From the sequence record OZ413487.1: a stretch of DNA of 64,000 nucleotides; one strand, 5' to 3'. This DNA comes from a phage. The notes below the pieces were generated by a model. It was given only the letters and a program-made list of their open reading frames with translations, searched no databases and was not told where the DNA came from. Positions 2,467-40,745 of the stretch are shown here, piece after piece. Made by a program: the position numbers and the translations under genes. Numbering within the stretch: the stretch's first letter is position 1; every line of letters begins with the position of its first letter.

Positions 2467-4890
2467 ATGAGCATGTGGTCGTTCGACTTTGAGTCATCCG
2501 GTTTGCTGGAAGACCCAGATCTTTATTATCACTGCGGCCTGTTTAAAGAGCTGAATAAGAACCGTTTTATGCTGTTCCTTCCTCTAAATGACCGCACACA
2601 CTACTCCGAGGAGGATATAGAAAAGGCTAAGAACTTCATTCTGGCAAAGAAAACTCTTTATAAAGATTTTGAAGTTCGCATAGCAGATTTTTCAGAGTTG
2701 GAAGGTTGGCTTACAGGAAATTCTGACTGGTCACCAACAGCTTTGAACTGCCATAACTGCTACAGTTATGACTTTATGCTGATGGAAAGATTATCTGGTA
2801 TTCATTTTGATATGTTCCGTGATCCTAAATGTATGGGGACTATCAACGATCACCAGGTTAACCTGTTTGATACGTTGGCGATGAGCCGAATCTTGTGGCC
2901 TGATCGCCCTTTACCAAAAGGTTGTCCGGACTCTGTATTCAACCCGGTTACTAAGAAAATGCAGCCTGTTGGTCCTCACGGCCTTATGGCATGGGGCTAC
3001 GCCCTTGGTAACCAGAAAGTTCAAATTGATGACTGGCGCGATCTTCCGTTGTGGAAGTATGTGGATCGTGTATTCGAGGACGTTATCATCCAGGAGCTGC
3101 TCTGGAAAGAGCTGGTAGCGGAATCAAAAGGTGTATTCTACGGCAAATCTGACATGCAGAACTTTATGTACGATCCGGCCAAAGAGAAGCCGAAAGGGTT
3201 CAAGAAGATCACCTGGAAGAACGCATTACGTCGAGGCATGCTGCAGCACTTCCTGATGGAGCTGCAGGCCCGTCAGGGTGTATACTTCGACATAGATGGA
3301 GCTATTGCTTTACGTGACCGTTGCGATGCGTGGATGAAAGAAATCGCTGATCGTGTTGAACCACAACTACCTTTAAAAGAGCTGTCAATGTCTCAGCGGC
3401 CCAAGTTCCCTGAAAAGCCGTTTAACCAAGACGGGACAATCTCTAATAATGGTTGGAAATGGTTAAAAGATAAGCTTGGCTATCCTGTAGACATGAGTGC
3501 TTTAGAGTTCAAAGCCCTGCCTAAGCGAGCATTTACCTCTACAGGAGATGTCAGCAAGATGGGGATAAAATGGTGTGAAGAGATGGGCTGCAAAGACCCC
3601 GATAAGATGGCTGATTTCTTGAGAGGCTATATTAAGGGCACCTCCACACCACAACCCTTACCTAAAGAGCTGATGGATCAGGCAATAAGTGATCTGCAGC
3701 AGAAGCGAATGCCTGACTGCAAGATACCTATGAAAATCAGCAATCAGGACGACATCAAGCGATACCTAATCAGTGCTGGTTGGCTCCCAACAATGTGGAG
3801 AACTAAAGATGTAACTAAAGACAGCAAGAAGAAAGCTTTACCTGATGCAGATGTTGATGCACGAGTATATGCATATATGGACGAGCTTTTGGAGTCAGAG
3901 TATTGTGACCTAATTATCAACTTCTGGAACAAAACTGATGCTAAGTTCCAGACAACCGTGCACAAGTTCCGAAGCTTTCCTAACTCCGAAAGGATTAAAA
4001 AGGAAGTATTCGGGAAAATACGTAGAAAAGCCAGGGCACTTATTACTTCTCCGCAACTGAAAGATACGTTTGGACACCTATGCCCAAATCTTGAAAAATT
4101 GAACGGAGAGATGGCTAAAGATATCGTCTTGTGGTTATCATTGCGAAACCGCAGATCGGTCCTTGATCCAATCAAGGAGGATAAGGTTGATACTGGTCTT
4201 CTTAATCACCCACGTTTGAAGATTGACCATAAGCTTCCTGCTAAAAGCTCTGGATTAACAAACACTTCCAGACAGAAACACAGTATTTGTGCAAACATGC
4301 CTAAACCATCTCCTAAAGTAGTTATGGGTAAAGAGATGCGTAGTCTGTGGGGTGTTCCTCCAGGATACTTTGAGATCGGTATTGACGGGTCCAACTTAGA
4401 GCAGCTCATCGGGGCTTGGGGTGCCTTTGAGTTCGACAACGGCTTGTATTATGATGTTGTAAGTAACGGAGACGCACACCAAAACAATGCTGAGGCATAT
4501 ACAAAAGTGGCAGGCAGAGAGGTGTCCCGTAACGACGGTAAACCTATCACGTATGGGGTTATGTACGGGGCACAAAAAGATAAAGTTGCAGATATGCTGG
4601 ACATCTCCCCAGAGTTGGGACAAAGGGTAATCGATGCACTCTGGGATGCCAACCCAGGTCTTAAGGGGCGCAAAGAGGATCTGGAGAAATTCTGGGAAGC
4701 AACAGGTAAGAAGTTTATCTACTCTTTTGATGGTCATGCTATCTGGACCCGATCTAAACACTCTTTACTTAATGCATACCAACAAAATGGCGGTGCATCG
4801 TTGTGTGACTTAGTTGGAATACTCATGCACCACCAGATGGTGAAGCGTGGGTGGTACGATGAAGGTGTTCGTCGTATTATTTATTACCAT
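2467..4890 (+). CDS. DNA polymerase, family A, exon 1 (3'-5' exo + polymerase motifs A and B, up to His of motif C)
   Basis: N-terminal exo I motif FDFESSGL; motif A GIDGSNLEQ; motif B RNDGKPITYGVMYGAQ; ORF ends ...RRIIYYH-K-stop where family A polymerases have VHDE. Confidence 0.8.
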
Positions 4891-5166
4891 AAATAACATT
4901 GTGGCTTCATAGAGTAATCTATGTCGAATAACCTCTTTAACTGCGGGAAGCCTAAACCTTATGGCAAGGTAATCCGCAACGAAGCGCTCAAAAGAGCGAA
5001 CGCTCAGAGGCCATTCCGAAAGGAAGTAGACCAGCAAGTGCGGTCGAAATGGGAGGATTCCTGTGGTTGCTTATCATAGGAATATGAGATGGTCCGATCC
5101 TACGTGAAAACGTATGGCTATGCACGTAATGGTGCGGGGTAGCTTAACGACCTACCTGAACTATTG
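4891..5166. other. putative group I self-splicing intron in DNA polymerase gene
   Basis: Exon 1 ends in U (4890); intron ends in G (5166); internal guide CAUUGUGG (4897-4904) can pair with exon-1 end CCAU (P1, U.G at splice site) and exon-2 start GAUG (P10); four in-frame stops; splicing restores YYH-DEYQLQV. Confidence 0.55.
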
Positions 5167-25564: not shown

Positions 25565-25846
25565 TCAGTCCAGTGGTTCATCACCTACTTCACTGAAATC
25601 AATGTTCATGGTCTCCTCCCAACCATCAATCTCAGCACCAGAGTAGAGATCTTTAGGACTTACTCCCAAAGCATCAGCAACAGAGTCCATATTTAACACC
25701 TCTGGCAGGTATGATTCATCGAATTCAAGGTAAATCAGGCCACGAGTGTTGTCAGCTCCACCAAATATTTCTATCTTCATGAAATCTCCTCTGGGAATGA
25801 GAGTGTGAACAGGGTTTATACGTTCCAATGCGCTGGAATTATGCAC
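25565..25846 (-). CDS. hypothetical acidic protein
   Basis: ORF track; last gene of the - strand block. Confidence 0.4.
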   Translation of the reverse strand: MHNSSALERINPVHTLIPRGDFMKIEIFGGADNTRGLIYLEFDESYLPEVLNMDSVADALGVSPKDLYSGAEIDGWEETMNIDFSEVGDEPLD

Positions 25847-26473
25847 GTTTGCCTCTTCAGGCCATGCTTCAGCATGAGGAACCTGTGTGGGCTCGGTGCT
25901 TCATAGTCTACCACCCCTGAACTCTTCGTGCTCAGGCATAATAGAGAACCAGATATCTACGATGTCTTCCCACGTCAGGTCATCAGCCTCAGGATCTACC
26001 TGGAGCGAAGATGAAGAATCTTCAGAATCGAAGTTTTCCTCTTGCACTGGCTCAGTCAAGGGACATATAGTCACTCCTTTGGATGTCTCTTCAGATGCAT
26101 GTGTGTTTATCATGTTCCACCCGTGAGTATTCCGGCAACAGCTGCTATGGACGTAATGATCATCAGGATCACCACTAAAACTTCGGACAATGTTCTCATT
26201 GTGTACTCCATATTCTACAAACTATGTGTGGATACTATCACTGGATCGGTAATGTGTCAACAGAAACGCCGCGAGGGTTTGGTTAAAATCCGAGCGTATG
26301 GTGATTTGGGTCAAAACGGACGTGCGTTCTCGCTACGCTCGAAATATGGAGTTGTTTGTAGGGAGCTCTTAAACGCTCTGTAATGAAATTAACTACCCAA
26401 GGTATGCAATCGTGCACCAGACAAAGAAAAGGACGCCACAGAGCGTCCTAGGTGTCTTAAATTTGATATTTTG

Positions 26474-26785
26474 CTATACCCACGAGGGCTTATCAAGGTT
26501 GGAGTAGCTGAAAGGTGTCAAAAGGTGACTGTCAAAATCTCTCAAACTATCCAAATCTTTTTCCTCGTCCTGACACCATCTGTGCCTACATTTGTTGTTG
26601 TAGTGCATGGAATGCATAGCGTTCTGCAACTTAACAGGCACAAGTGATTCAGGAGTAGATAGTATTGTTGGGTATGCCAGAACCACCTCAAACAGTGGAA
26701 ACACATCGAAACTAAAGTCTACCTCTGCAGAGGTTGATGGCATATAGGAGTATTTAGCCGCCTTTGTAGACATAATCCACCTCAC
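26474..26785 (-). CDS. hypothetical protein
   Basis: ORF track. Confidence 0.4.
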   Translation of the reverse strand: MRWIMSTKAAKYSYMPSTSAEVDFSFDVFPLFEVVLAYPTILSTPESLVPVKLQNAMHSMHYNNKCRHRWCQDEEKDLDSLRDFDSHLLTPFSYSNLDKPSWV

Positions 26786-27114
26786 ACAGGTTTGATAATA
26801 CCTTCACCGAATAGCTCTTCGTATCTAATCTTGTCCGGATCCCACTCCTGTATAATTTCGAAGACAATATCCAACCCAGGAACAATCACTTCTCCAGTGT
26901 CAAGCTTAGCAAGAACAAAACCGGAAGGTTGAATGGTTTCCCAGTTACGGCGATCAGAATAAAATACTTCGAAAATATCACCAACCTCAATCCGTTTCTG
27001 TTGCTCAAGATGCTGAAGGTTCTCTTTCATACGGATGCAGCGTATTTTTCGTGCAGGCCATAGACCACCTGCATCACGTTCATTCAATTCTTTTACAGTG
27101 ATCGGTATACCCAT
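26782..27114 (-). CDS. hypothetical protein
   Basis: ORF track; 4-nt overlap with downstream gene. Confidence 0.45.
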   Translation of the reverse strand: MGIPITVKELNERDAGGLWPARKIRCIRMKENLQHLEQQKRIEVGDIFEVFYSDRRNWETIQPSGFVLAKLDTGEVIVPGLDIVFEIIQEWDPDKIRYEELFGEGIIKPV

Positions 27115-27169
27115 CTCAAGTCTCCTTCATGGATAGTAAAAAGAGGGGCCTAAGCCCCCCTCTTTGTCA

Positions 27170-27475
27170 TTATTCTACAGAGCGTTTGAACAGAATGTCT
27201 GCCTCAGACATGTGCTCAACCTCTTCTTCGATTTTAGCTCGACGTTTTTCAGCCTCATATCGAATATCGAACTCGGTAGCCACCAGAGATTTGATGAATT
27301 TAGGAGAATACAGATGATCCTGCTTCTCAACAAGAATGATATCCTTGATGGCATCTTTCAAATCTTTAATCTGAAGCTGGAGTTCCACCAGTTCTTCAAT
27401 TGTTTTGCGAAGGCGATCACGTTCTGCAGTGTCAGAAGGAAGAGAGGTGAACAGTTCAACTTTAGATTTAGCCAT
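27170..27475 (-). CDS. hypothetical coiled-coil protein
   Basis: ORF track. Confidence 0.45.
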   Translation of the reverse strand: MAKSKVELFTSLPSDTAERDRLRKTIEELVELQLQIKDLKDAIKDIILVEKQDHLYSPKFIKSLVATEFDIRYEAEKRRAKIEEEVEHMSEADILFKRSVE

Positions 27476-27503
27476 AGTAAGAGTCTCCTTATGTTGTTTT
27501 AAA

Positions 27504-27821
27504 TTAACGTTCTACAAAAATACCGTTCAGTTCAATAACCAGGAATTTCTGGTCTTCACTATCGTCTCGTGCCAGCACCTCACAGACGTATCGGTCATCC
27601 CCATCATCATCGCAGTCAAATACAAGACTGAGGACTTTATCATGGTAAACCTTCGCCACTACCGCCTCGTAAGTATTGCCGATTGTGAATCCAAGATAAT
27701 CTCCGATGCATTTGACAACAACATGGTCTCCAGCATTTAAGTCAATCTTCGTCATTACTGCGCTCCTTGGGTAATAATACTGTATGTAAAACTTTAACCA
27801 GAGATGTGAATAACGCCCCAA
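27504..27821 (-). CDS. hypothetical protein
   Basis: ORF track; true start may be the internal Met (MTKIDLNAG). Confidence 0.4.
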   Translation of the reverse strand: MGRYSHLWLKFYIQYYYPRSAVMTKIDLNAGDHVVVKCIGDYLGFTIGNTYEAVVAKVYHDKVLSLVFDCDDDGDDRYVCEVLARDDSEDQKFLVIELNGIFVER

Positions 27822-27910
27822 AACACACCGATAGCGCTAAAACAGACAAGGCCATCATTAAAGCTTCAGTAAAATCCGTCATTCCTCACCTCTTGTTAGT
27901 CACTATACTA

Positions 27911-28174
27911 TCATTTATCCTTGTCGTCAAGAACTTTTTTAAATCTTTCAGGGATATCTCCCGTTCTTAGATAGTTCATGACCTCGCAAGGTTCCCACTT
28001 GAATTTCTTACAGAGCAGGGCGGCTGAGATTGTTTCATTGCGAAAAGAAAGGATATTAATATCCCACTCTGAGAACCCCAACTTCCGAAGGGTAGCTACA
28101 GAAATCCTCACCGCAACCCAGCAGCAAAAACATGCAACAAACGCCACTGCTACAACCCACATCAGGATGTTCAT
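27911..28174 (-). CDS. hypothetical membrane protein
   Basis: N-terminal TM segment ILMWVVAVAFVACFCCWVAV. Confidence 0.4.
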   Translation of the reverse strand: MNILMWVVAVAFVACFCCWVAVRISVATLRKLGFSEWDINILSFRNETISAALLCKKFKWEPCEVMNYLRTGDIPERFKKVLDDKDK

Positions 28175-28263
28175 ATAAGCACCTTACTGAAATACAAGAC
28201 ACAGTGTTAAGGTTACTGACCAGCAAATAATTAACAGTGCCGTTGCAACCTTGGCAAGATTTA

Positions 28264-33723: not shown

Positions 33724-34007
33724 TTTCTAGTCCCCTTCTTAGATTTTTGTGTAGAAACGCTTTCTGCAATACGAGACAAACGTTCTTCTGAAGCCTTGCC
33801 TATTCCAGGTTTTTTGAGTGGGTTATCTTTATGACCACAATCCAATTGGATATTGGATACCTCTCCAACCTTGTAAGTCAATTCTAGCAAAAGGTTGTCG
33901 TCCTTGTCAAATGTTCTTACGATAAATTTTTTATCGTTCTCCTGAACTTCGTATCGGGTACCCGCAGTATACAGCATGGTGCCATCCGCATAGGATATCC
34001 AGATCAT
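33720..34007 (-). CDS. hypothetical protein
   Basis: ORF track. Confidence 0.4.
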   Translation of the reverse strand: MIWISYADGTMLYTAGTRYEVQENDKKFIVRTFDKDDNLLLELTYKVGEVSNIQLDCGHKDNPLKKPGIGKASEERLSRIAESVSTQKSKKGTRK

Positions 34008-34351
34008 TGAACCTCCTTCTGCTGCAACAGCATTAACTCTTTGTTGGAGATTTTTACTGCTGTTTTTATTGTTCCATCTTCACGAAACCACGACCAGAAC
34101 TCTACAGTGTCCCCACTGTCAAGCAAAGCATACCCGTGGTAGAAGTCTTTGTCCTTAGACAGTTTCTCATCTATGTCTGCATCGACACATTCGTGATCCA
34201 TAGCATTTTGCCTGAATGCATCGGTTATACCAATGCACGCCTTGCTCTCAAGACTGGTATATCCGATATCTTTTAATTCAGTTTCCCAAGTCCAGTACCC
34301 TATAAAAGCTAAAACAGCTACCCACATTAATAACGTTTTAATCTTTGGCAT
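34004..34351 (-). CDS. hypothetical protein with N-terminal signal/TM segment
   Basis: LLMWVAVLAFIGYWTW hydrophobic N-terminus. Confidence 0.4.
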   Translation of the reverse strand: MPKIKTLLMWVAVLAFIGYWTWETELKDIGYTSLESKACIGITDAFRQNAMDHECVDADIDEKLSKDKDFYHGYALLDSGDTVEFWSWFREDGTIKTAVKISNKELMLLQQKEVQ

Positions 34352-34413
34352 TCTCTCTACCTCTTTCTTAGTTTATTTCACTATGGCACATCCTTTGTGC
34401 CATATCTCAACCA

Positions 34414-34875
34414 CTACTTAAATAGTAGTCCAAAATAGTGCAAAATTAACAGAAGTTGAACTACACCTAGTGCAACGGCGAGTATGTTAATCTTAGAATC
34501 GAAAAACTTCTTAACTTTTACTCTAAAAGGTTCCTTAATGTCCTTTACGATCCTATTTATAGATGATTTCATATCCCTGATTACCATCCTAAACATTAGA
34601 GACGGATCTTCCTTCTCTGTAATAGAATCGAAAACATACTCTCTTCGGTCATAAGGACCTCCAGATCTGCGTATTAACCTCTCCACAGAGACCTCGTACG
34701 ACACACCTGTAACGTAATCATCTATGATAAGTAGTGACGGGTCTTTATCGTCCAAGGGTATTAAAGTTATCTTTCCAGATTTTGTTAAAATTTCTCCTTT
34801 TTCAAGCAAGGTGTACCAATGCTCTCTACCAAGATTGTTGAGGCACGTTTTTACATATTTAACAAACATCGTCAC
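34414..34875 (-). CDS. hypothetical protein with C-terminal TM anchor
   Basis: C-terminal ILAVALGVVQLLLILHYFGLLF. Confidence 0.4.
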   Translation of the reverse strand: MTMFVKYVKTCLNNLGREHWYTLLEKGEILTKSGKITLIPLDDKDPSLLIIDDYVTGVSYEVSVERLIRRSGGPYDRREYVFDSITEKEDPSLMFRMVIRDMKSSINRIVKDIKEPFRVKVKKFFDSKINILAVALGVVQLLLILHYFGLLFK

Positions 34876-35075
34876 CCCTCATCGCACGTCTGATATAACC
34901 ACTCTATGAAATCTTGATACCATTCGCCCTCTGAGCGCTCCGTAGGCCAATAATCTTCACCCTCTCGTGCATTAAAATCTGAGTATTCAACTTTCCACTC
35001 CTTTACCAGCTCGTGGAGAAGGTTTTCAGCCTGCTCTAAAGATTTATTTTTTGCCATTGCTGTCTCCTTTTTCAA
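34872..35075 (-). CDS. hypothetical protein
   Basis: ORF track. Confidence 0.4.
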   Translation of the reverse strand: MKKETAMAKNKSLEQAENLLHELVKEWKVEYSDFNAREGEDYWPTERSEGEWYQDFIEWLYQTCDEG

Positions 35076-36335: not shown

Positions 36336-36734
36336 TTACTGAACAGAGCGCGGTGCTGGGAAGGATAACTCCTCTAAAGAGAAGATTTCATTTCCTACCA
36401 CCCAAGTTGCTGGGTCATCTGGATCAACAGGTTGGATAATCATTACCTCATCCGCCTCGCACACACGTTTCCCACCCATAGTAGCGTCAGCCACTAACAT
36501 ACGCGGCTCTTCAGAAATGCACAGGTAGCCACCTCGGCCCACTGTTCCTTCCACGGGATCCTGCCCTTTGACCACAATGAATACCTTCTCTCCTGTGGAG
36601 ATATTACTTTTCACACTAACAGTTTGACCAACTTTAGATGTACCGATCTTGGTGGCTTCAAACATTAAATCCCGAATTACTGTTGCATAGTTGCCGGACA
36701 CTTTCTTACCTTCTTTAGTAATCTCAATCTTCAT
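36336..36734 (-). CDS. hypothetical protein
   Basis: ORF track. Confidence 0.45.
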   Translation of the reverse strand: MKIEITKEGKKVSGNYATVIRDLMFEATKIGTSKVGQTVSVKSNISTGEKVFIVVKGQDPVEGTVGRGGYLCISEEPRMLVADATMGGKRVCEADEVMIIQPVDPDDPATWVVGNEIFSLEELSFPAPRSVQ

Positions 36735-37006
36735 AATCTAGGCTCCTTAAATGAATCTATGTAATCAATTAAATCCCAAGCATCGCGATGGGCTGTCAGA
36801 GGGTATACTTCTCCGAGAGGGATCATAGCAATAAGTCTATCAAAAACCCAGTCTGGACGCAACATTTTATGGTGATATTCCCACTCACCTTCCACAGATT
36901 TTTTCTGAGTTATCAGGATCTCTGTGTAGTGTTTCTCCTGTCTTGAGTAGATTGAAAATGACTTGTACATAAATGACCCCCTCTTGTTGAAAACAACAAT
37001 ACACAA
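36731..37006 (-). CDS. hypothetical protein
   Basis: ORF track. Confidence 0.4.
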   Translation of the reverse strand: MCIVVFNKRGSFMYKSFSIYSRQEKHYTEILITQKKSVEGEWEYHHKMLRPDWVFDRLIAMIPLGEVYPLTAHRDAWDLIDYIDSFKEPRL

Positions 37007-37321
37007 CTACCAGGTTACTGTCAAGTAGGCAACCGTATTATTTTTCTCTGGGGAGATGCCAACAACATCTACCTGCAGACCTCCTGCCCTTAAATCTCCA
37101 ACAATGTGAGGGAAGTAATCTGAGAGATGCGAGGGTAGATTTATCGAAAATCCGCACCCCAGAAAGCCTGCTAACGCTTTATTTTGTATCTCCCCCACAA
37201 TCGCATCATAAATGGAGTTAAGCTCGTCAGGGAGCGTTACAGGACGTTTTAGCGCTAACTGGTGTAATTTGTCCTTAGCACTCATTTTCATTTCAGGTCT
37301 ACCTCTGGAGGTGCCAACCAC
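37007..37321 (-). CDS. hypothetical protein
   Basis: ORF track. Confidence 0.4.
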   Translation of the reverse strand: MVGTSRGRPEMKMSAKDKLHQLALKRPVTLPDELNSIYDAIVGEIQNKALAGFLGCGFSINLPSHLSDYFPHIVGDLRAGGLQVDVVGISPEKNNTVAYLTVTW

Positions 37322-37821
37322 ATAAACGGCGGCAAGTCTAAACGGTTTTTCTTATCCCACACAAAATATGCATATGCTTGCCCGTCAGTTCTGCCGTTTG
37401 ATTGAAATGATGGACGCTTAGATATTGTGATCACAGTAGTAGGTGCATTATCAAGCCACCATTCAAATCTGGCTTTGCTTTCCAGAAAATTAAGACGCAA
37501 AAGCATAATAACTACGTCAGCATCTTTCAACGCCTTGTCTACAAACTCACGAGCCAGGCTGTATGGTGGGTTGGTGATAATACAGTCAACATGGTTGTAT
37601 TCTGTATTCAGATAGTCAACACCTTCTTGTATTTCTCCCCATGCAGATCCTAACGGCATACGGGAGTAGAACACACCTGAGGCACTATTCCTGCAAGGCT
37701 CTAAGTAGGTCCAGTCTTCTGGGAACGGAATAAGGTCATACAGCCCTTCTGCACACCACTCCGGTGTCACATACTCATCGTAGGCGTTACGTTGTTCATC
37801 AGGTTTTCGAGCACAAGTCAT
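37288..37821 (-). CDS. small phage-type N6-adenine DNA methyltransferase
   Basis: Catalytic motif IITNPPY preceded by motif-I-like LEPCRNSASGVF; ~177 aa. Confidence 0.65.
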   Translation of the reverse strand: MTCARKPDEQRNAYDEYVTPEWCAEGLYDLIPFPEDWTYLEPCRNSASGVFYSRMPLGSAWGEIQEGVDYLNTEYNHVDCIITNPPYSLAREFVDKALKDADVVIMLLRLNFLESKARFEWWLDNAPTTVITISKRPSFQSNGRTDGQAYAYFVWDKKNRLDLPPFMWLAPPEVDLK

Positions 37822-37872
37822 GCAAATCTCCAGATCATAAAAGCCCTCCGAAGAGGGCTTTAGAATTAATGT

Positions 37873-38922
37873 TTAAGCTTCTTCGACAATTCCTGCACCC
37901 AGGATTTTTTCATTGAGCTCTTTTGCTGTTTTAATAATATTGTCCACCAGACGCTTGCGAGTCTTATCTTTTACCTTAACCTCTTCACCGCCGTTTAGGG
38001 TTGTCTTCAATTGGGACAAAATGTCTTGAAGTTCAACGACAGAGAATCGCTGCAGATCTTCTGAGGTAATCTCACCTAAGGCAATCTTAACGGTCTCACC
38101 ACTTTCCATCTGCAGGTTCAGGAACACAGTGTGAACATCCCCTTTCGAACCACCCGCTTTTGCAGATTCAACAGCATGAACTAACTCATCTAAAGATGTG
38201 CACTGGTGAATCTCCGGAAGACCTGCTTCACCTAACACGCCTTCTTCATCACCTTTTGCCAGAAGCTTTTTCGGTTTTTGTCCGTTCTGGATGCGTTGTA
38301 TGTTGCCTTCATCCAGAATAATAGCTCCAGTGCGTGCTGCCAGCTCTTCTCCGTCCAACCACACTTCGCCACCAGCTGTGATGGATGCGATCTCATCTTC
38401 TGTCAGCACCCCACCGTAGTATTTTTCGATCAGGCGTTCAAAACGTTTTTTCCAGTAGCTGACCTGAGTATTCATGTTCACACCGTTACCATAAGTGCCA
38501 CCTTGATAGTAGTGGAACATAAACTCTGTGTCCGGAGCCACAGTACGTTCTTTGCAACCCAGCCATAAGATTGTTCCCGCAGAGCAGCACATCCCTTCCG
38601 CATGTGCAACAACGCTTGCCTGAGACTCGCGGAATGCCTGCAGATAAGCCATCGCAATGTGCACGCAACCACCAGGGCTGTTAATGATCACTCGAATGCT
38701 TTCTTCAGGCTGAGCCATACGGATCGTCTGCAGGCGAGACATATGATCCTGCAGGTCTTCCAAATCGTCGATATAAAGAACGTGGTCAACAACAGGTGTT
38801 GGGTAGCTGTATGTTTCCATGATACCGCCCGGCATACCAAACATTTTATTACTCATAGGTTCGAAACCGTTCTGTTTCTCTTTCATGCCGTGTACCATGG
38901 TGCTGCGAGGTGTTAAATTCAT
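37873..38922 (-). CDS. ClpP-family (S14) serine peptidase-like protein
   Basis: INSPGG...EGMCCSAGT...FMFH matches ClpP INSPGG / AASMGA / MIHQP pattern; C-terminal coiled-coil extension. Confidence 0.6.
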   Translation of the reverse strand: MNLTPRSTMVHGMKEKQNGFEPMSNKMFGMPGGIMETYSYPTPVVDHVLYIDDLEDLQDHMSRLQTIRMAQPEESIRVIINSPGGCVHIAMAYLQAFRESQASVVAHAEGMCCSAGTILWLGCKERTVAPDTEFMFHYYQGGTYGNGVNMNTQVSYWKKRFERLIEKYYGGVLTEDEIASITAGGEVWLDGEELAARTGAIILDEGNIQRIQNGQKPKKLLAKGDEEGVLGEAGLPEIHQCTSLDELVHAVESAKAGGSKGDVHTVFLNLQMESGETVKIALGEITSEDLQRFSVVELQDILSQLKTTLNGGEEVKVKDKTRKRLVDNIIKTAKELNEKILGAGIVEEA

Positions 38923-38982
38923 GAGAAATCCTTAATATTGGAAGTTGAAAGCTATTTATTTAAACCTGATTCACATTTACCT

Positions 38983-39294
38983 TTATTTAGCAATCACTAT
39001 GGAATACTTACGATTGTCAGAAGCATCACAGCTCAATGATTGCCAGTCTACCACATACCACGTATCATTGTCAACAATTACTTTATCGCCTGTTCTGTAG
39101 CAAGTGCTGCTTTCAATAATTCGAGACTCGATAAAGAATCTGTGTCGGCGCTCACGTAGCAACGCTAAGTTAATTATATTACCACCGCTGTCCTTGGTCC
39201 ACACATTCTTGGATCCCTTATTTGCCAAAATTGTCTCGCCGTTATAGACAAACAGGCAGTATATTTTATTCAGTTTCTCTTGTATTGTAGCCAT
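38983..39294 (-). CDS. hypothetical protein
   Basis: ORF track. Confidence 0.4.
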   Translation of the reverse strand: MATIQEKLNKIYCLFVYNGETILANKGSKNVWTKDSGGNIINLALLRERRHRFFIESRIIESSTCYRTGDKVIVDNDTWYVVDWQSLSCDASDNRKYSIVIAK

Positions 39295-39395
39295 ACTGTC
39301 CTTCTCTCTGTTTTGTCCGATAATAATATCTAAAGCTTACCTATTTGTCAACAACTGTTTTAGATATTTAAGGGTGGAATAACCACCCTTCTGTA

Positions 39396-40184
39396 TTACT
39401 CGGAAACAGGGGTCCAAATATGATTTGCACGATCCTCAATAAGATTGAGTGCGATCTGACGACCCAACCCAGAACGAACGACATCGTCTGGACTATCAAA
39501 GCTGATCATTCCAACCTCAGGATCTGGATGACGAGTAAAGAAATCCGTCACCCATGCAAGGCCAGATTTACCAGGGATGTCACGTTGGCTATTATCACCC
39601 ATAATTACAAGGGTGGCTTGATCAGAGATCCTTGTGATAATTGACAACATTTCTTCAGGGTTAGTTTGCTGTGCCTCGTCAATCAGGACAAAGCATCGCT
39701 CATCGAAACTACGACCACGAATGCTTTCAACTTCACAAATCTCGATACGACTGTTCTGACCGTCTCCCAGCATTGCGGCAAAAGCACCTTTGCCAACACG
39801 ACGACAAATCGTGTCCATCATGCTTCGAAGATAGGGCCACAGTTTCTGCATTGCATTTCCGGGTTTAAATCCTGAAGTCTTTCCTGTCTGGACGTAAGGA
39901 CGTGCAACAATGATCTTATCAATCTCATTCTTACGCAGAAGATCACCTGCATATGCAGATGCCATGAATGTCTTACCGGATCCAAACACACCGTTTACAA
40001 TAATAATCTTACGTGACCCTAGATAATCAAGATACTTTTGCTGCTTTTTATTCATTGGTCGGAGAGCTGGAGCGGTGTGCTCTCGTTCGTCAGCAAATTT
40101 CTCAGCAGCCTTACGCAGGCGATCAGATTTGCGAGCCTCTCTAGCTTCATCACGCATGCGTTTTGTTTCTTTAGCTCGACCCAT
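39396..40184 (-). CDS. phoH: PhoH-like ATPase
   Basis: Walker A GVFGSGKTF; Walker B VLIDEAQQ; PhoH-type length. Confidence 0.85.
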   Translation of the reverse strand: MGRAKETKRMRDEAREARKSDRLRKAAEKFADEREHTAPALRPMNKKQQKYLDYLGSRKIIIVNGVFGSGKTFMASAYAGDLLRKNEIDKIIVARPYVQTGKTSGFKPGNAMQKLWPYLRSMMDTICRRVGKGAFAAMLGDGQNSRIEICEVESIRGRSFDERCFVLIDEAQQTNPEEMLSIITRISDQATLVIMGDNSQRDIPGKSGLAWVTDFFTRHPDPEVGMISFDSPDDVVRSGLGRQIALNLIEDRANHIWTPVSE

Positions 40185-40222
40185 GTTGGGACTCCTTTCA
40201 GATTGAGATGTGCCAAGTACTT

Positions 40223-40573
40223 TTACTGCAACAGTTTTTCAATAGCCGCTTCCATGCTGCTTGCAACAGCCTGAACTCGGATATTCATCTCTTCTTGGTG
40301 GATCAGCTCCTTAAGCTCTTTAATGGTAAATTCTTTAGAGAAACCTTCCACCATAATCTTGTGCAAGGCTTCTTGCGTGTCTACTTGCAAGAACTTTTCC
40401 AGTTTGTTGGCAGAGGCTTCTAAATCAGCCCGAATACGAGGGTCATCTGTGCGATTCAGCATTAGGCGTAAGCCATCAAGATTAGTAGAAATAGCGTCTG
40501 CATGTTGAGTAACTAACCGTGGCAAAATGAGATCTACAAACTTATTAGCCAAATCGATACGTTCTTGTGTCAC
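40223..40573 (-). CDS. hypothetical protein
   Basis: ORF track. Confidence 0.4.
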   Translation of the reverse strand: MTQERIDLANKFVDLILPRLVTQHADAISTNLDGLRLMLNRTDDPRIRADLEASANKLEKFLQVDTQEALHKIMVEGFSKEFTIKELKELIHQEEMNIRVQAVASSMEAAIEKLLQ

Positions 40574-40745
40574 TGTTGCACCCCCTCTTCATCCTCATGA
40601 TATTTCTTTTCACGCTTGTGTTTTTTCTTAAGCTCAAGCGCAATCTCTTTTTTGTACGCCTTCTTCAAGGCTTTTTTAGCCATTTGGCACCTCCTCTGCT
40701 CTCATTACGCTAATTATAACCAACTTAACAAAGCTTTGTCAACGA

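What the first reader, a model, noticed from the sequence alone, without database searches (positions are those of the whole stretch)
37873..38922. ClpP-like peptidase outside any visible morphogenesis module
The ClpP-fold protein with a ~150-aa coiled-coil C-terminal extension is flanked by a methyltransferase and PhoH, not portal or capsid genes. It could be a displaced prohead protease-scaffold fusion, or a protease acting on host proteins.
Basis: partly seen in the sequence, partly recalled or inferred. Interest (0 to 1): 0.4.

Follow-up and report, generated by a model that had tools for sequence, protein, structure and literature searches.

The report
Stand-alone ClpP-like protease of rV5-type phage
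This is the already-annotated gp122 "ClpP" gene of rV5-like E. coli phages: a real ClpP-fold serine protease that sits far from the head genes (which have their own protease), is probably not a true ATP-dependent ClpP, and still has no known job.

Summary
The ORF is real (37873-38922, minus strand, 349 aa) and is about 99% identical to rV5 gp122, annotated as a ClpP subunit since 2013. Residues 45-200 are a confident ClpP fold with invariant Ser114 and His137. The "about 150-aa coiled coil" is wrong: the tail is a disordered linker plus a small alpha/beta domain specific to Vequintavirinae.

The "displaced prohead protease-scaffold" reading is unlikely:
- Relatives carry an XkdF/S78-type prohead protease and a scaffold gene between portal and capsid genes, at least 34 kb away even on a circular map.
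- The ClpP-like protein is absent from three virion proteomes of the subfamily.
- It lies behind a near-consensus sigma-70 promoter and lacks the late-gene motif.
- The PhoH / ClpP-like / methyltransferase neighbourhood is conserved. T5 and ICP1 also have both a head-module protease and an unlinked ClpP-like gene.

The "ATP-dependent ClpP" label is also doubtful. The protein scores 33 bits against a 309-bit cutoff on TIGR00493. Glu or Gln replaces the catalytic Asp. Eight of 12 hydrophobic residues of the Clp-ATPase docking pocket are polar.

Best guess: a non-structural protease acting in the infected cytoplasm on unknown substrates. It is a known gene of unknown function, of modest interest.

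The parts
37873..38922 (-). ClpP-like protease gene (orthologue of rV5 gp122), 349 aa including stop codon
   Evidence: ORF. PHROG 5410 full length, E=3e-155. 99% identical DNA in over 100 Vequintavirus records, annotated 'ClpP ATP-dependent protease subunit'. rV5 Table S3 lists gp122.
38791..38922 (-). N-terminal region (residues 1-44), predicted disordered, with a family-conserved N-x-F-G-x-P-G-G ... Y-S-Y-P motif. It is not alignable with the axial loop of ClpP.
   Evidence: pLDDT 30-36. F28, G29, P31, G32 nearly invariant and Y40, P41 invariant.
38323..38790 (-). ClpP-fold catalytic core (residues 45-200). Ser114 codon 38581-38583, His137 codon 38512-38514, Glu186 (position of the ClpP Asp171) codon 38365-38367.
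   Evidence: pLDDT about 85-94. Foldseek hits to ClpP structures. Ser and His invariant in 189 sequences; third position is D, E, Q, T or M.
38194..38322 (-). Linker (residues 201-243): a conserved short helix (LLDExNIxRxQ) followed by a variable, disordered stretch that carries a Vequintavirus-specific insertion
   Evidence: Alignment. pLDDT below 50 for residues 222-239.
37897..38193 (-). C-terminal alpha/beta domain (residues 244-342), specific to PHROG 5410. Invariant F293, E297, R322.
   Evidence: Models (pLDDT about 80-88 over the core of the domain). It matches only PHROG 5410. Shared with the Certrevirus CR8 homologue (hhalign E=3e-5) but not ICP1. No convincing PDB or BFVD fold match.
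38983..39294 (-). Small upstream ORF (rV5 gp121, 103 aa, PHROG 5456, unknown function), probably co-transcribed with the protease gene
   Evidence: A gp121-like ORF lies upstream of the ClpP-like gene in 13 of 17 IMG/VR loci by phmmer.
39323..39351 (-). Sigma-70-type promoter (TTGACA, 17 nt spacer, TATTAT; 11 of 12 matches) in front of gp121 and the protease gene
   Evidence: PhagePromoter prediction at the equivalent place in the phage Gotham record.
37836..37861 (-). Terminator-like hairpin (AAGCCCTC-ttcg-GAGGGCTT followed by TTTAT) 11 nt after the protease stop codon
   Evidence: Sequence. ARNold-predicted terminator at the equivalent place in the Gotham record. The scan tool did not list it.
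37288..37821 (-). Downstream N6-adenine methyltransferase-like gene (rV5 gp123, NPPY motif), a conserved downstream neighbour
   Evidence: PHROG 799, E=8e-67; weak Pfam Dam and EcoRI_methylase hits. Downstream of the ClpP-like gene in 17 of 17 loci, often with overlapping stop and start codons.
39396..40184 (-). PhoH-like ATPase gene (rV5 gp120), a conserved upstream neighbour
   Evidence: Pfam PhoH E=4e-47. Upstream on the same strand in 16 of 17 full-length loci and 2 ICP1-like contigs. Adjacent and overlapping by 8 nt in Pseudomonas phage KIL1. Also nearby in ICP1 and CR8.
40713..40742 (-). Perfect-consensus sigma-70 promoter (TTGACA, 18 nt spacer, TATAAT) upstream of gp118/gp119/PhoH

Best explanation
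The gene encodes a non-structural ClpP-fold serine peptidase (Ser114/His137, with Glu or Gln in place of the usual Asp). The host sigma-70 RNA polymerase probably transcribes it together with the small gp121 gene, as part of the nucleotide-metabolism and replication arm of the genome. It probably acts in the infected cytoplasm, not inside the prohead.

It belongs to a phage-specific clade: PHROG 5410 in Vequintavirinae, with sister PHROG 1827 in T5-like, ICP1, PAK_P1-like, KIL1 and N4-like phages. This clade is closer to ClpP-related head-maturation proteases than to cellular ClpP. In every context inspected it lies outside the head module, and where the head module was checked (rV5-like, ICP1, T5) it carries its own protease.

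The hydrophobic pocket that docks ClpX and ClpA is replaced by invariant polar residues. The protein therefore most likely works without the host Clp unfoldases, either as a self-gated chamber or with another partner. The Vequintavirinae-specific C-terminal domain, held on a flexible linker, most likely recruits substrates or partners.

Shown here: fold, conserved Ser/His, loss of the pocket, genomic separation from the head module, promoter type, absence from virion proteomes. Inferred: catalytic activity, timing of expression, independence from Clp ATPases, role of the C-terminal domain. Unknown: substrates.
For: - Fold and catalytic residues.
- Separate head protease: an XkdF/S78_2 gene between portal and scaffold/capsid genes in HeinrichReichert. 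The same protein (phrog_1530) was detected in W70 and CB7 virions, whereas no PHROG 5410 protein was listed. No gp122 peptides appear in the rV5 virion MS data.
- ICP1 likewise has a 'capsid protease' about 45 kb from its ClpP-like gene. T5 has head protease T5.150 beside the capsid and portal genes, plus an early-region T5.042.
- Promoters: an 11-of-12 sigma-70 promoter precedes gp121-gp122 and a hairpin follows it. The late motif tGGTAAAATA precedes the structural genes but not this gene (motif from PMC3606486).
- Conserved non-structural synteny.
- Not a true ClpP: TIGR00493 33 bits against a cutoff of 308.6. The Asp171 position is Glu or Gln. Eight of 12 IGL-pocket residues (list from bioRxiv 10.1101/820209) are polar, six of them invariant.
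Against: - No expression data exist for this gene. Sigma-70-like promoters are spread over the whole rV5 genome (PMC3606486), so promoter type alone does not prove early timing.
- Prohead proteases are often lost from mature virions, so the negative proteomics is weak evidence.
- The closest outside families are head-maturation proteases.
- A protease with a flexible linker and a small C-terminal domain is also the usual layout of capsid-targeted proteases.
- The T5-type homologue was detected at trace level in purified BF23 virions.
- The pocket mapping rests on a sequence alignment, not a multimer structure.
- Oligomeric state and activity are untested.
Confidence: 0.5

Rival explanations
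1. It is an accessory morphogenetic protease. It enters the prohead, with the C-terminal domain acting as a capsid- or scaffold-targeting signal, and processes some head-internal proteins alongside the XkdF-type protease. It would be a displaced or second head-maturation protease.
For: - The best non-self HMM hits are ClpP-related head-maturation proteases: NF045542 at 60 bits, and PHROG 1684 at E=9e-22 covering residues 70-256.
- The protease / linker / small C-domain architecture fits.
- The homologous 'Clp protease' ORF45 was found in purified BF23 virions.
Against: - NF045542 is scored at half its cutoff of 120.
- A dedicated protease and scaffold gene already sit in the head module.
- The gene is at least 34 kb from the head genes on a circular map, on another transcription arm, and lacks the late motif.
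- It is not in the rV5, W70 or CB7 virion proteomes.
- The BF23 signal is trace (3 peptides, about 0.07% of capsid intensity) and was accompanied by dihydrofolate reductase, a likely contaminant.
- Core-only homologues such as T5.042 have no targeting tail.
Confidence: 0.2
2. It is what the databases call it: an alternative proteolytic core that docks onto host ClpX or ClpA (or mixes with host ClpP) and redirects ATP-dependent proteolysis during infection.
For: - It passes the Pfam CLP_protease gathering threshold.
- The handle region is of normal length and the fold is ClpP-like.
- Ser and His are conserved.
Against: - It fails every NCBIfam ClpP model by a wide margin.
- The IGF/IGL docking pocket is polar and invariant: Q65, R77, E99, H107, E109, T127. 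The residue at the R192 position is Glu.
- The N-terminal axial loop is not conserved.
- At the position of ClpP Arg170, recalled from memory as the ring-ring sensor, the family has an invariant Gly.
- Identity to solved ClpPs is only 17-23%.
Confidence: 0.1
3. It works with the neighbouring PhoH-like ATPase (and possibly gp121) as a phage-encoded two-component degradation machine.
For: - PhoH lies upstream on the same strand in 16 of 17 full-length loci and in ICP1-like contigs.
- The two genes overlap by 8 nt in Pseudomonas phage KIL1.
- The linkage is also seen in ICP1 and CR8.
Against: - The phages showing the linkage are distantly related myoviruses with a shared backbone: rV5 used ICP1 as a phylogenetic outgroup. 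Synteny may therefore simply be inherited.
- Variable genes are inserted between the two in most lineages.
- The T5-like, PAK_P1-like and N4-like homologues have no PhoH nearby.
- From general knowledge, PhoH-family proteins are RNA-helicase/NTPase-like, not known protein unfoldases.
Confidence: 0.07
4. It is a catalytically dead ClpP mimic that titrates or poisons a host component.
For: The canonical Asp is missing, and the surface that replaces the docking pocket is invariant and therefore functionally constrained.
Against: - Ser114 and His137 are invariant in all 189 sequences examined. The oxyanion and handle Gly residues are also conserved.
- That pattern is hard to explain without catalysis.
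- Glu, Gln or Asn can still orient the His.
Confidence: 0.05

Closest known systems
rV5 gp122 / PHROG 5410 ('ATP-dependent protease') of Vequintavirinae
   Same: - The same gene: 97-99.7% protein identity in over 100 Vequintavirus records, and 40-70% in other genera.
- Same length class, same C-terminal domain, and the same PhoH / gp121 / ClpP-like / methyltransferase neighbourhood.
   Different: Nothing of substance. The function of the family is uncharacterised.
PHROG 1827: T5.042, BF23 ORF45, and the ICP1, KIL1, PAK_P1-like and N4-like 'ATP-dependent/Clp protease' genes
   Same: - Sister family: reciprocal HMM hits at 1e-23 to 1e-40.
- Conserved Ser/His.
- Located among early, nucleotide-metabolism or small non-structural genes, not in the head module.
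- Function stated as unknown in PMC10644984.
   Different: - Mostly core-only (180-235 aa), without the Vequintavirinae C-terminal domain. The ICP1 tail is unrelated.
- The third catalytic position is more often Asp.
- The BF23 protein was seen at trace level in virions.
ClpP-related phage head-maturation proteases (NCBIfam NF045542; PHROGs 1684, 94, 133, 2976)
   Same: - Nearest outside families by HMM.
- ClpP fold with Ser/His.
- Often carry C-terminal scaffold or targeting extensions.
   Different: - Scores half the NF045542 cutoff.
- Not in the head module, no late motif, not found in Vequintavirinae virions.
- The genome has a separate XkdF-type head protease.
Bacterial ClpP (MEROPS S14, TIGR00493), proteolytic core of ClpXP and ClpAP
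   Same: Same fold (TM 0.62-0.72), same Ser and His positions, handle region of similar length.
   Different: - 17-23% identity.
- 33 bits against a 309-bit cutoff.
- Asp171 replaced by Glu or Gln.
- Docking pocket polar.
- N-terminal loops unrelated.
- An extra 150-aa tail.

Membership tests
Bacterial ATP-dependent ClpP (S14; TIGR00493 and NCBIfam ClpP models) | ClpP alpha/beta fold with handle region | tested here: met
   AlphaFold2 core pLDDT about 90. Foldseek top hits are all ClpP, TM 0.62-0.72 normalised to the target.
Bacterial ATP-dependent ClpP (S14; TIGR00493 and NCBIfam ClpP models) | Ser-His-Asp catalytic triad | tested here: not met
   Ser114 and His137 are invariant. The Asp171 position is Glu186 here and Gln in 35 of 40 family members.
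Bacterial ATP-dependent ClpP (S14; TIGR00493 and NCBIfam ClpP models) | Reaches the curated family score | tested here: not met
   TIGR00493 33.2 bits (cutoff 308.6); PRK00277 38 (cutoff 249); PRK12553 39 (cutoff 228). Only the broad Pfam CLP_protease domain model is passed (47.7 against 20.2).
Bacterial ATP-dependent ClpP (S14; TIGR00493 and NCBIfam ClpP models) | Apical hydrophobic pocket that docks the IGF/IGL loops of ClpX or ClpA | tested here: not met
   Pocket residues are taken from the E. coli ClpAP structure paper. L23, L48, F49, Y60, F82, I90, M92 and F112 become P43, Q65, T66, R77, E99, H107, E109 and T127, six of them invariant. R192 becomes E205. The mapping is alignment-based.
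Bacterial ATP-dependent ClpP (S14; TIGR00493 and NCBIfam ClpP models) | Tetradecameric chamber; ATP- and unfoldase-dependent protein degradation | not testable with these tools
   No multimer prediction or biochemistry was available.
ClpP-related phage head-maturation protease (NF045542) | Reaches the curated family score | tested here: not met
   60.4 bits against a cutoff of 120. It is still the best NCBIfam hit.
ClpP-related phage head-maturation protease (NF045542) | Encoded in the head module next to portal, scaffold or capsid genes | tested here: not met
   The head module lies about 100 kb away on the linear map, or about 34 kb across the ends, in HeinrichReichert. It contains its own S78_2 protease.
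ClpP-related phage head-maturation protease (NF045542) | Late expression with the structural genes | tested here: inconclusive
   A sigma-70 -35/-10 promoter lies upstream and the late tGGTAAAATA motif is absent. No transcript data exist.
ClpP-related phage head-maturation protease (NF045542) | Present in proheads and cleaves head proteins | not testable with these tools
   Indirect evidence only. It is absent from the rV5, W70 and CB7 virion MS data. The PHROG 1827 homologue is present at trace level in BF23 virions.
PHROG 5410 (Vequintavirinae gp122 family) | Full-length profile match including the C-terminal domain | tested here: met
   E=3e-155, residues 24-345 against profile positions 4-322 of 323. 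The C-domain alone gives E=9e-33.
PHROG 5410 (Vequintavirinae gp122 family) | Conserved neighbourhood: PhoH, gp121-like ORF, ClpP-like gene, methyltransferase | tested here: met
S49 (SppA / lambda gpC-type) and SDH/NfeD ClpP-fold proteases | Profile match above threshold; Ser-Lys dyad | tested here: not met
   No Peptidase_S49 hit. SDH_protease 15.7 bits (cutoff 31.3) and NfeD1b_N 18.9 bits (cutoff 40). The catalytic His is retained.

The most novel reading that the evidence does not exclude
PHROG 5410 and PHROG 1827 together form a widespread, unrecognised class of phage-encoded chambered proteases. They are found in T5-like, ICP1, N4-like, PAK_P1-like, KIL1 and rV5-like phages. On this reading they have abandoned the Clp-ATPase docking site and act early or mid-infection on host or defence proteins. 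In the rV5/ICP1/KIL1 lineage they may work together with the linked PhoH-like ATPase, and possibly with gp121 as adaptor or inhibitor.
Probability: 0.12. Interest if true: 0.7.

Novelty: already known. Interest (0 to 1): 0.27.

Why it matters
The gene itself is not new. It has been annotated since 2013 in rV5 and in over 100 relatives. The oddity of a "Clp protease" of unknown function beside a genuine prohead protease has been noted in print for the T5-like phage BF23.

This analysis adds three points:
- The label "ATP-dependent Clp protease proteolytic subunit" that is propagated in the databases is probably misleading. The family fails the curated ClpP models and lacks both the unfoldase docking pocket and the catalytic Asp.
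- The displaced-prohead-protease idea is unlikely.
- The family and its sister PHROG 1827 sit outside the head module in every context inspected, including several model virulent phages (T5, ICP1, N4-like, PAK_P1-like). Its function is therefore a tractable open question in easily manipulated systems.

If it proved to be a host-takeover or counter-defence protease, that would be of real interest. At present this is speculation.

Tried and rejected
- Coiled-coil claim. Rejected from the secondary structure of two independent models.
- Late-promoter test. Neither the rV5 late motif nor T4-type TATAAATA lies upstream of the gene.
- A locus search with a diverse eight-clade alignment failed because it had no conserved stretch. 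The Vequintavirinae alignment worked.
- Neighbour-family scan of 21 distant IMG/VR clusters. Contexts were mixed: some terminase, portal or head-closure genes, some SSB or endolysin genes, many unknowns. This is not decisive and is not used as evidence.
- Literature searches for a functional study of phage ClpP homologues that are not head-linked found none. The only explicit statement found is 'function currently unknown'.
- Recent capture of host clpP is rejected: identity to solved ClpPs is only 17-23%, and the protein is closer to phage head-protease models.

Full report
**What is there.** The window is from an rV5-like E. coli myovirus (Vequintavirus). The 4 kb around the finding is 99% identical to phages APECc02 and rV5_ev168 and to over 100 other records. 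The ORF at 37873-38922 (-) is intact and 349 aa long. It has an AAGGA ribosome-binding site 7 nt upstream of the ATG. It is the orthologue of rV5 gp122, listed in 2013 as 'ClpP (ATP-dependent) protease subunit', 349 aa, 38.5 kDa (PMC3606486 Table S3). It matches Pfam CLP_protease (E=2e-12), PHROG 5410 over its full length (E=3e-155) and solved ClpPs (E about 1e-7).

**Anatomy.** An AlphaFold2 model built on 40 family sequences gives a confident ClpP core (residues 45-200, pLDDT about 85-94). The N-terminus (1-44) is disordered. A short conserved helix (205-212) is followed by a disordered linker (222-239). The tail is a small alpha/beta domain: helix 244-257, beta-hairpin 267-281, and helices 295-309 and 322-342. 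A separate model of the tail gives the same topology. The tail is therefore not a 150-aa coiled coil.

**Is it a real ClpP?** An exhaustive profile search finds 1,824 cluster representatives at E<=1e-10. Only a handful share the full-length architecture. I aligned 189 sequences: the query, 39 full-length relatives, 148 wider representatives and E. coli ClpP.
- Ser114 and His137 are invariant.
- The position of the ClpP Asp171 is Glu186 here. It is Gln in 35 of 40 close relatives and Asp in 106 of 148 wider ones. It is D, E or N across eight phage clades.
- NCBIfam puts the protein nearest to 'head maturation protease, ClpP-related' (NF045542, 60 bits, cutoff 120). It is far from true ClpP (TIGR00493, 33 bits, cutoff 308.6).
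- The E. coli ClpAP structure paper lists the IGL-loop pocket as L48, F49, A52 and F82, plus L23, Y60, Y62, I90, M92, F112, L114 and L189, with E26 and R192 (bioRxiv 10.1101/820209). In gp122 eight of the 12 hydrophobic positions are polar or charged. Q65, R77, E99, H107, E109 and T127 are invariant in the family. R192 is replaced by Glu.

The canonical docking site for ClpX and ClpA is therefore not conserved, and the 'ATP-dependent' label is unsupported. The invariance of the replacement residues suggests this surface has acquired another function. This mapping is alignment-based. The region is ungapped between NSPGG and the catalytic His, but no multimer model could be made.

**Is it the head protease?** The window contains no head genes. 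It corresponds to about 66.5-130.5 kb of phage HeinrichReichert. That genome carries a canonical block at 0.7-7.7 kb: terminase, portal, 'prohead protease', scaffold, decoration protein and major capsid protein. The 139-aa protease in that block is a genuine Peptidase_S78_2/XkdF member (65 bits against a cutoff of 24).

The distance from the ClpP-like gene is about 100 kb, or about 34 kb across the genome ends.

Virion mass spectrometry gives the following:
- W70 (Septuagintavirus) lists the XkdF-type protease (phrog_1530) and the phrog_2970 'scaffold/capsid' protein, but no PHROG 5410 protein.
- The CB7 (Certrevirus) paper mentions only one protease, the head-module CB7_5, and never 'Clp'.
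- The rV5 MS file contains no gp122 peptides and not its mass.

ICP1 also has both genes: a 'capsid protease' of the XkdF type and a ClpP-like gene about 45 kb away. T5 has head protease T5.150 between the capsid and decoration/portal genes, and T5.042 in the early region beside dNMP kinase.

One caveat. [quoted passage not shown] It was present at trace level (3 peptides, about 0.07% of capsid intensity), together with dihydrofolate reductase (PMC10644984).

**Expression signals and neighbourhood.**
- A TTGACA-17-TATTAT promoter lies at 39351-39323 in front of the 103-aa gp121 ORF. The protease gene follows after a 60-nt gap.
- A GC-rich hairpin with a T-run follows its stop codon. ARNold predicts a terminator at the equivalent place in phage Gotham.
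- The rV5 late motif (TggTAaAAtA; PMC3606486) is easily seen upstream of structural genes g12, g17, TF28 and bp32. Variants precede the portal, XkdF protease and short tail fibre genes. It is absent upstream of gp121 and gp122.
- This points to a bicistronic unit transcribed by host polymerase. It is not a measurement of timing.

In 17 full-length IMG/VR loci (37-97% identity), PhoH lies upstream on the same strand in 16. A gp121-like ORF is detectable in 13. The NPPY methyltransferase is downstream in all 17, often with overlapping stop and start codons. PhoH linkage recurs in ICP1 and CR8. In Pseudomonas phage KIL1 the two genes overlap by 8 nt. The PAK_P1-like, N4-like and T5-like homologues have no PhoH nearby and sit among early-type small ORFs or nucleotide-metabolism genes. 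All of these are PHROG 1827, the sister of PHROG 5410. Because several of these myoviruses share a backbone, the synteny may simply be inherited.

**Conclusion.** The most likely reading (about 0.5) is a non-structural ClpP-fold Ser/His peptidase. It would be expressed from host-type promoters and act in the cytoplasm without the canonical Clp unfoldases. The lineage-specific C-terminal domain would serve as a tethered recognition module. Substrates are unknown.

The rivals are:
- a second, capsid-associated protease (about 0.2);
- a genuine ClpX/ClpA-dependent core (about 0.1);
- a PhoH-coupled machine (about 0.07);
- a dead mimic (about 0.05).

The gene and its location are already on record, and no functional study was found. 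The finding is an already-known gene of unknown function and of modest interest. The useful by-products are that its database name is probably wrong and that the head-protease idea can largely be set aside.

Noticed in passing
window 4881-5116 (+): A group I catalytic intron (Rfam RF00028, 64.7 bits, E=4e-14) lies right after the first DNA-polymerase ORF (2467-4896). This fits the two-piece DNA polymerase with a homing endonuclease annotated in phage HeinrichReichert.
   Followed up: partly
L002:4840-5259 (HeinrichReichert head module); RefSeq records of phages FV3, FFH2 and ESCO5: The XkdF/S78_2 prohead protease of rV5-like phages falls in PHROG 1530, whose label is 'DNA methyltransferase'. 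Several RefSeq records therefore annotate the head protease as a DNA methyltransferase or DNA-binding protein. This looks like propagated mis-annotation.
   Followed up: partly
GenBank MG065635, MG065653, MG065661, MG065652, MG065689 (hits to window 36500-40500 and to the head protease): About 19-23 records named 'Campylobacter phage' (host C. jejuni) are 98-100% identical to E. coli Vequintavirus or Phapecoctavirus sequences. Mislabelling or contamination of those deposits seems likely.
   Followed up: no
window 37821-37873, and loci L016-L028: In other Vequintavirinae genera the ClpP-like stop codon and the methyltransferase start codon overlap, which suggests translational coupling. In Vequintavirus proper a 51-nt spacer with a terminator-like hairpin separates them. 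The methyltransferase is short (177-227 aa) with an NPPY motif and only weak Pfam Dam and EcoRI_methylase matches.
   Followed up: partly
window about 25700-28200 (junction of the plus-strand and minus-strand arms; GC skew changes sign here): The corresponding 2.5 kb in HeinrichReichert (92153-94648) has no annotated CDS, and the rV5 paper marks a 'non-coding' box. In the window only short overlapping ORFs of 113 aa or less on both strands are present. No tRNA or Rfam family was found there.
   Followed up: partly
rV5 virion MS (PMC3606486); same minus-strand arm as the finding, about 11 genes downstream (window roughly 34000-35000): The rV5 paper reports gp133, a protein encoded in this non-structural arm, as 'one of the predominant proteins' in virion MS (15.9% coverage). 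I did not identify which window ORF this is or what it does.
   Followed up: no
W70 virion proteome (PMC11370258), homologue of L002:5259-6236: The phrog_2970 protein annotated as 'head scaffold protein' in HeinrichReichert is abundant in mature W70 virions (913 spectra). It may therefore be a retained capsid component rather than a classical scaffold that is lost during maturation.
   Followed up: no
L003:1932-3392 (-) and L003:7044-8228 (+) in HeinrichReichert (outside the window): The genome also encodes a DUF2201 metallopeptidase/VWA-like protein and a MoxR-type AAA ATPase a few kb apart. This is a second candidate protease-ATPase pair unrelated to the ClpP-like gene.
   Followed up: no
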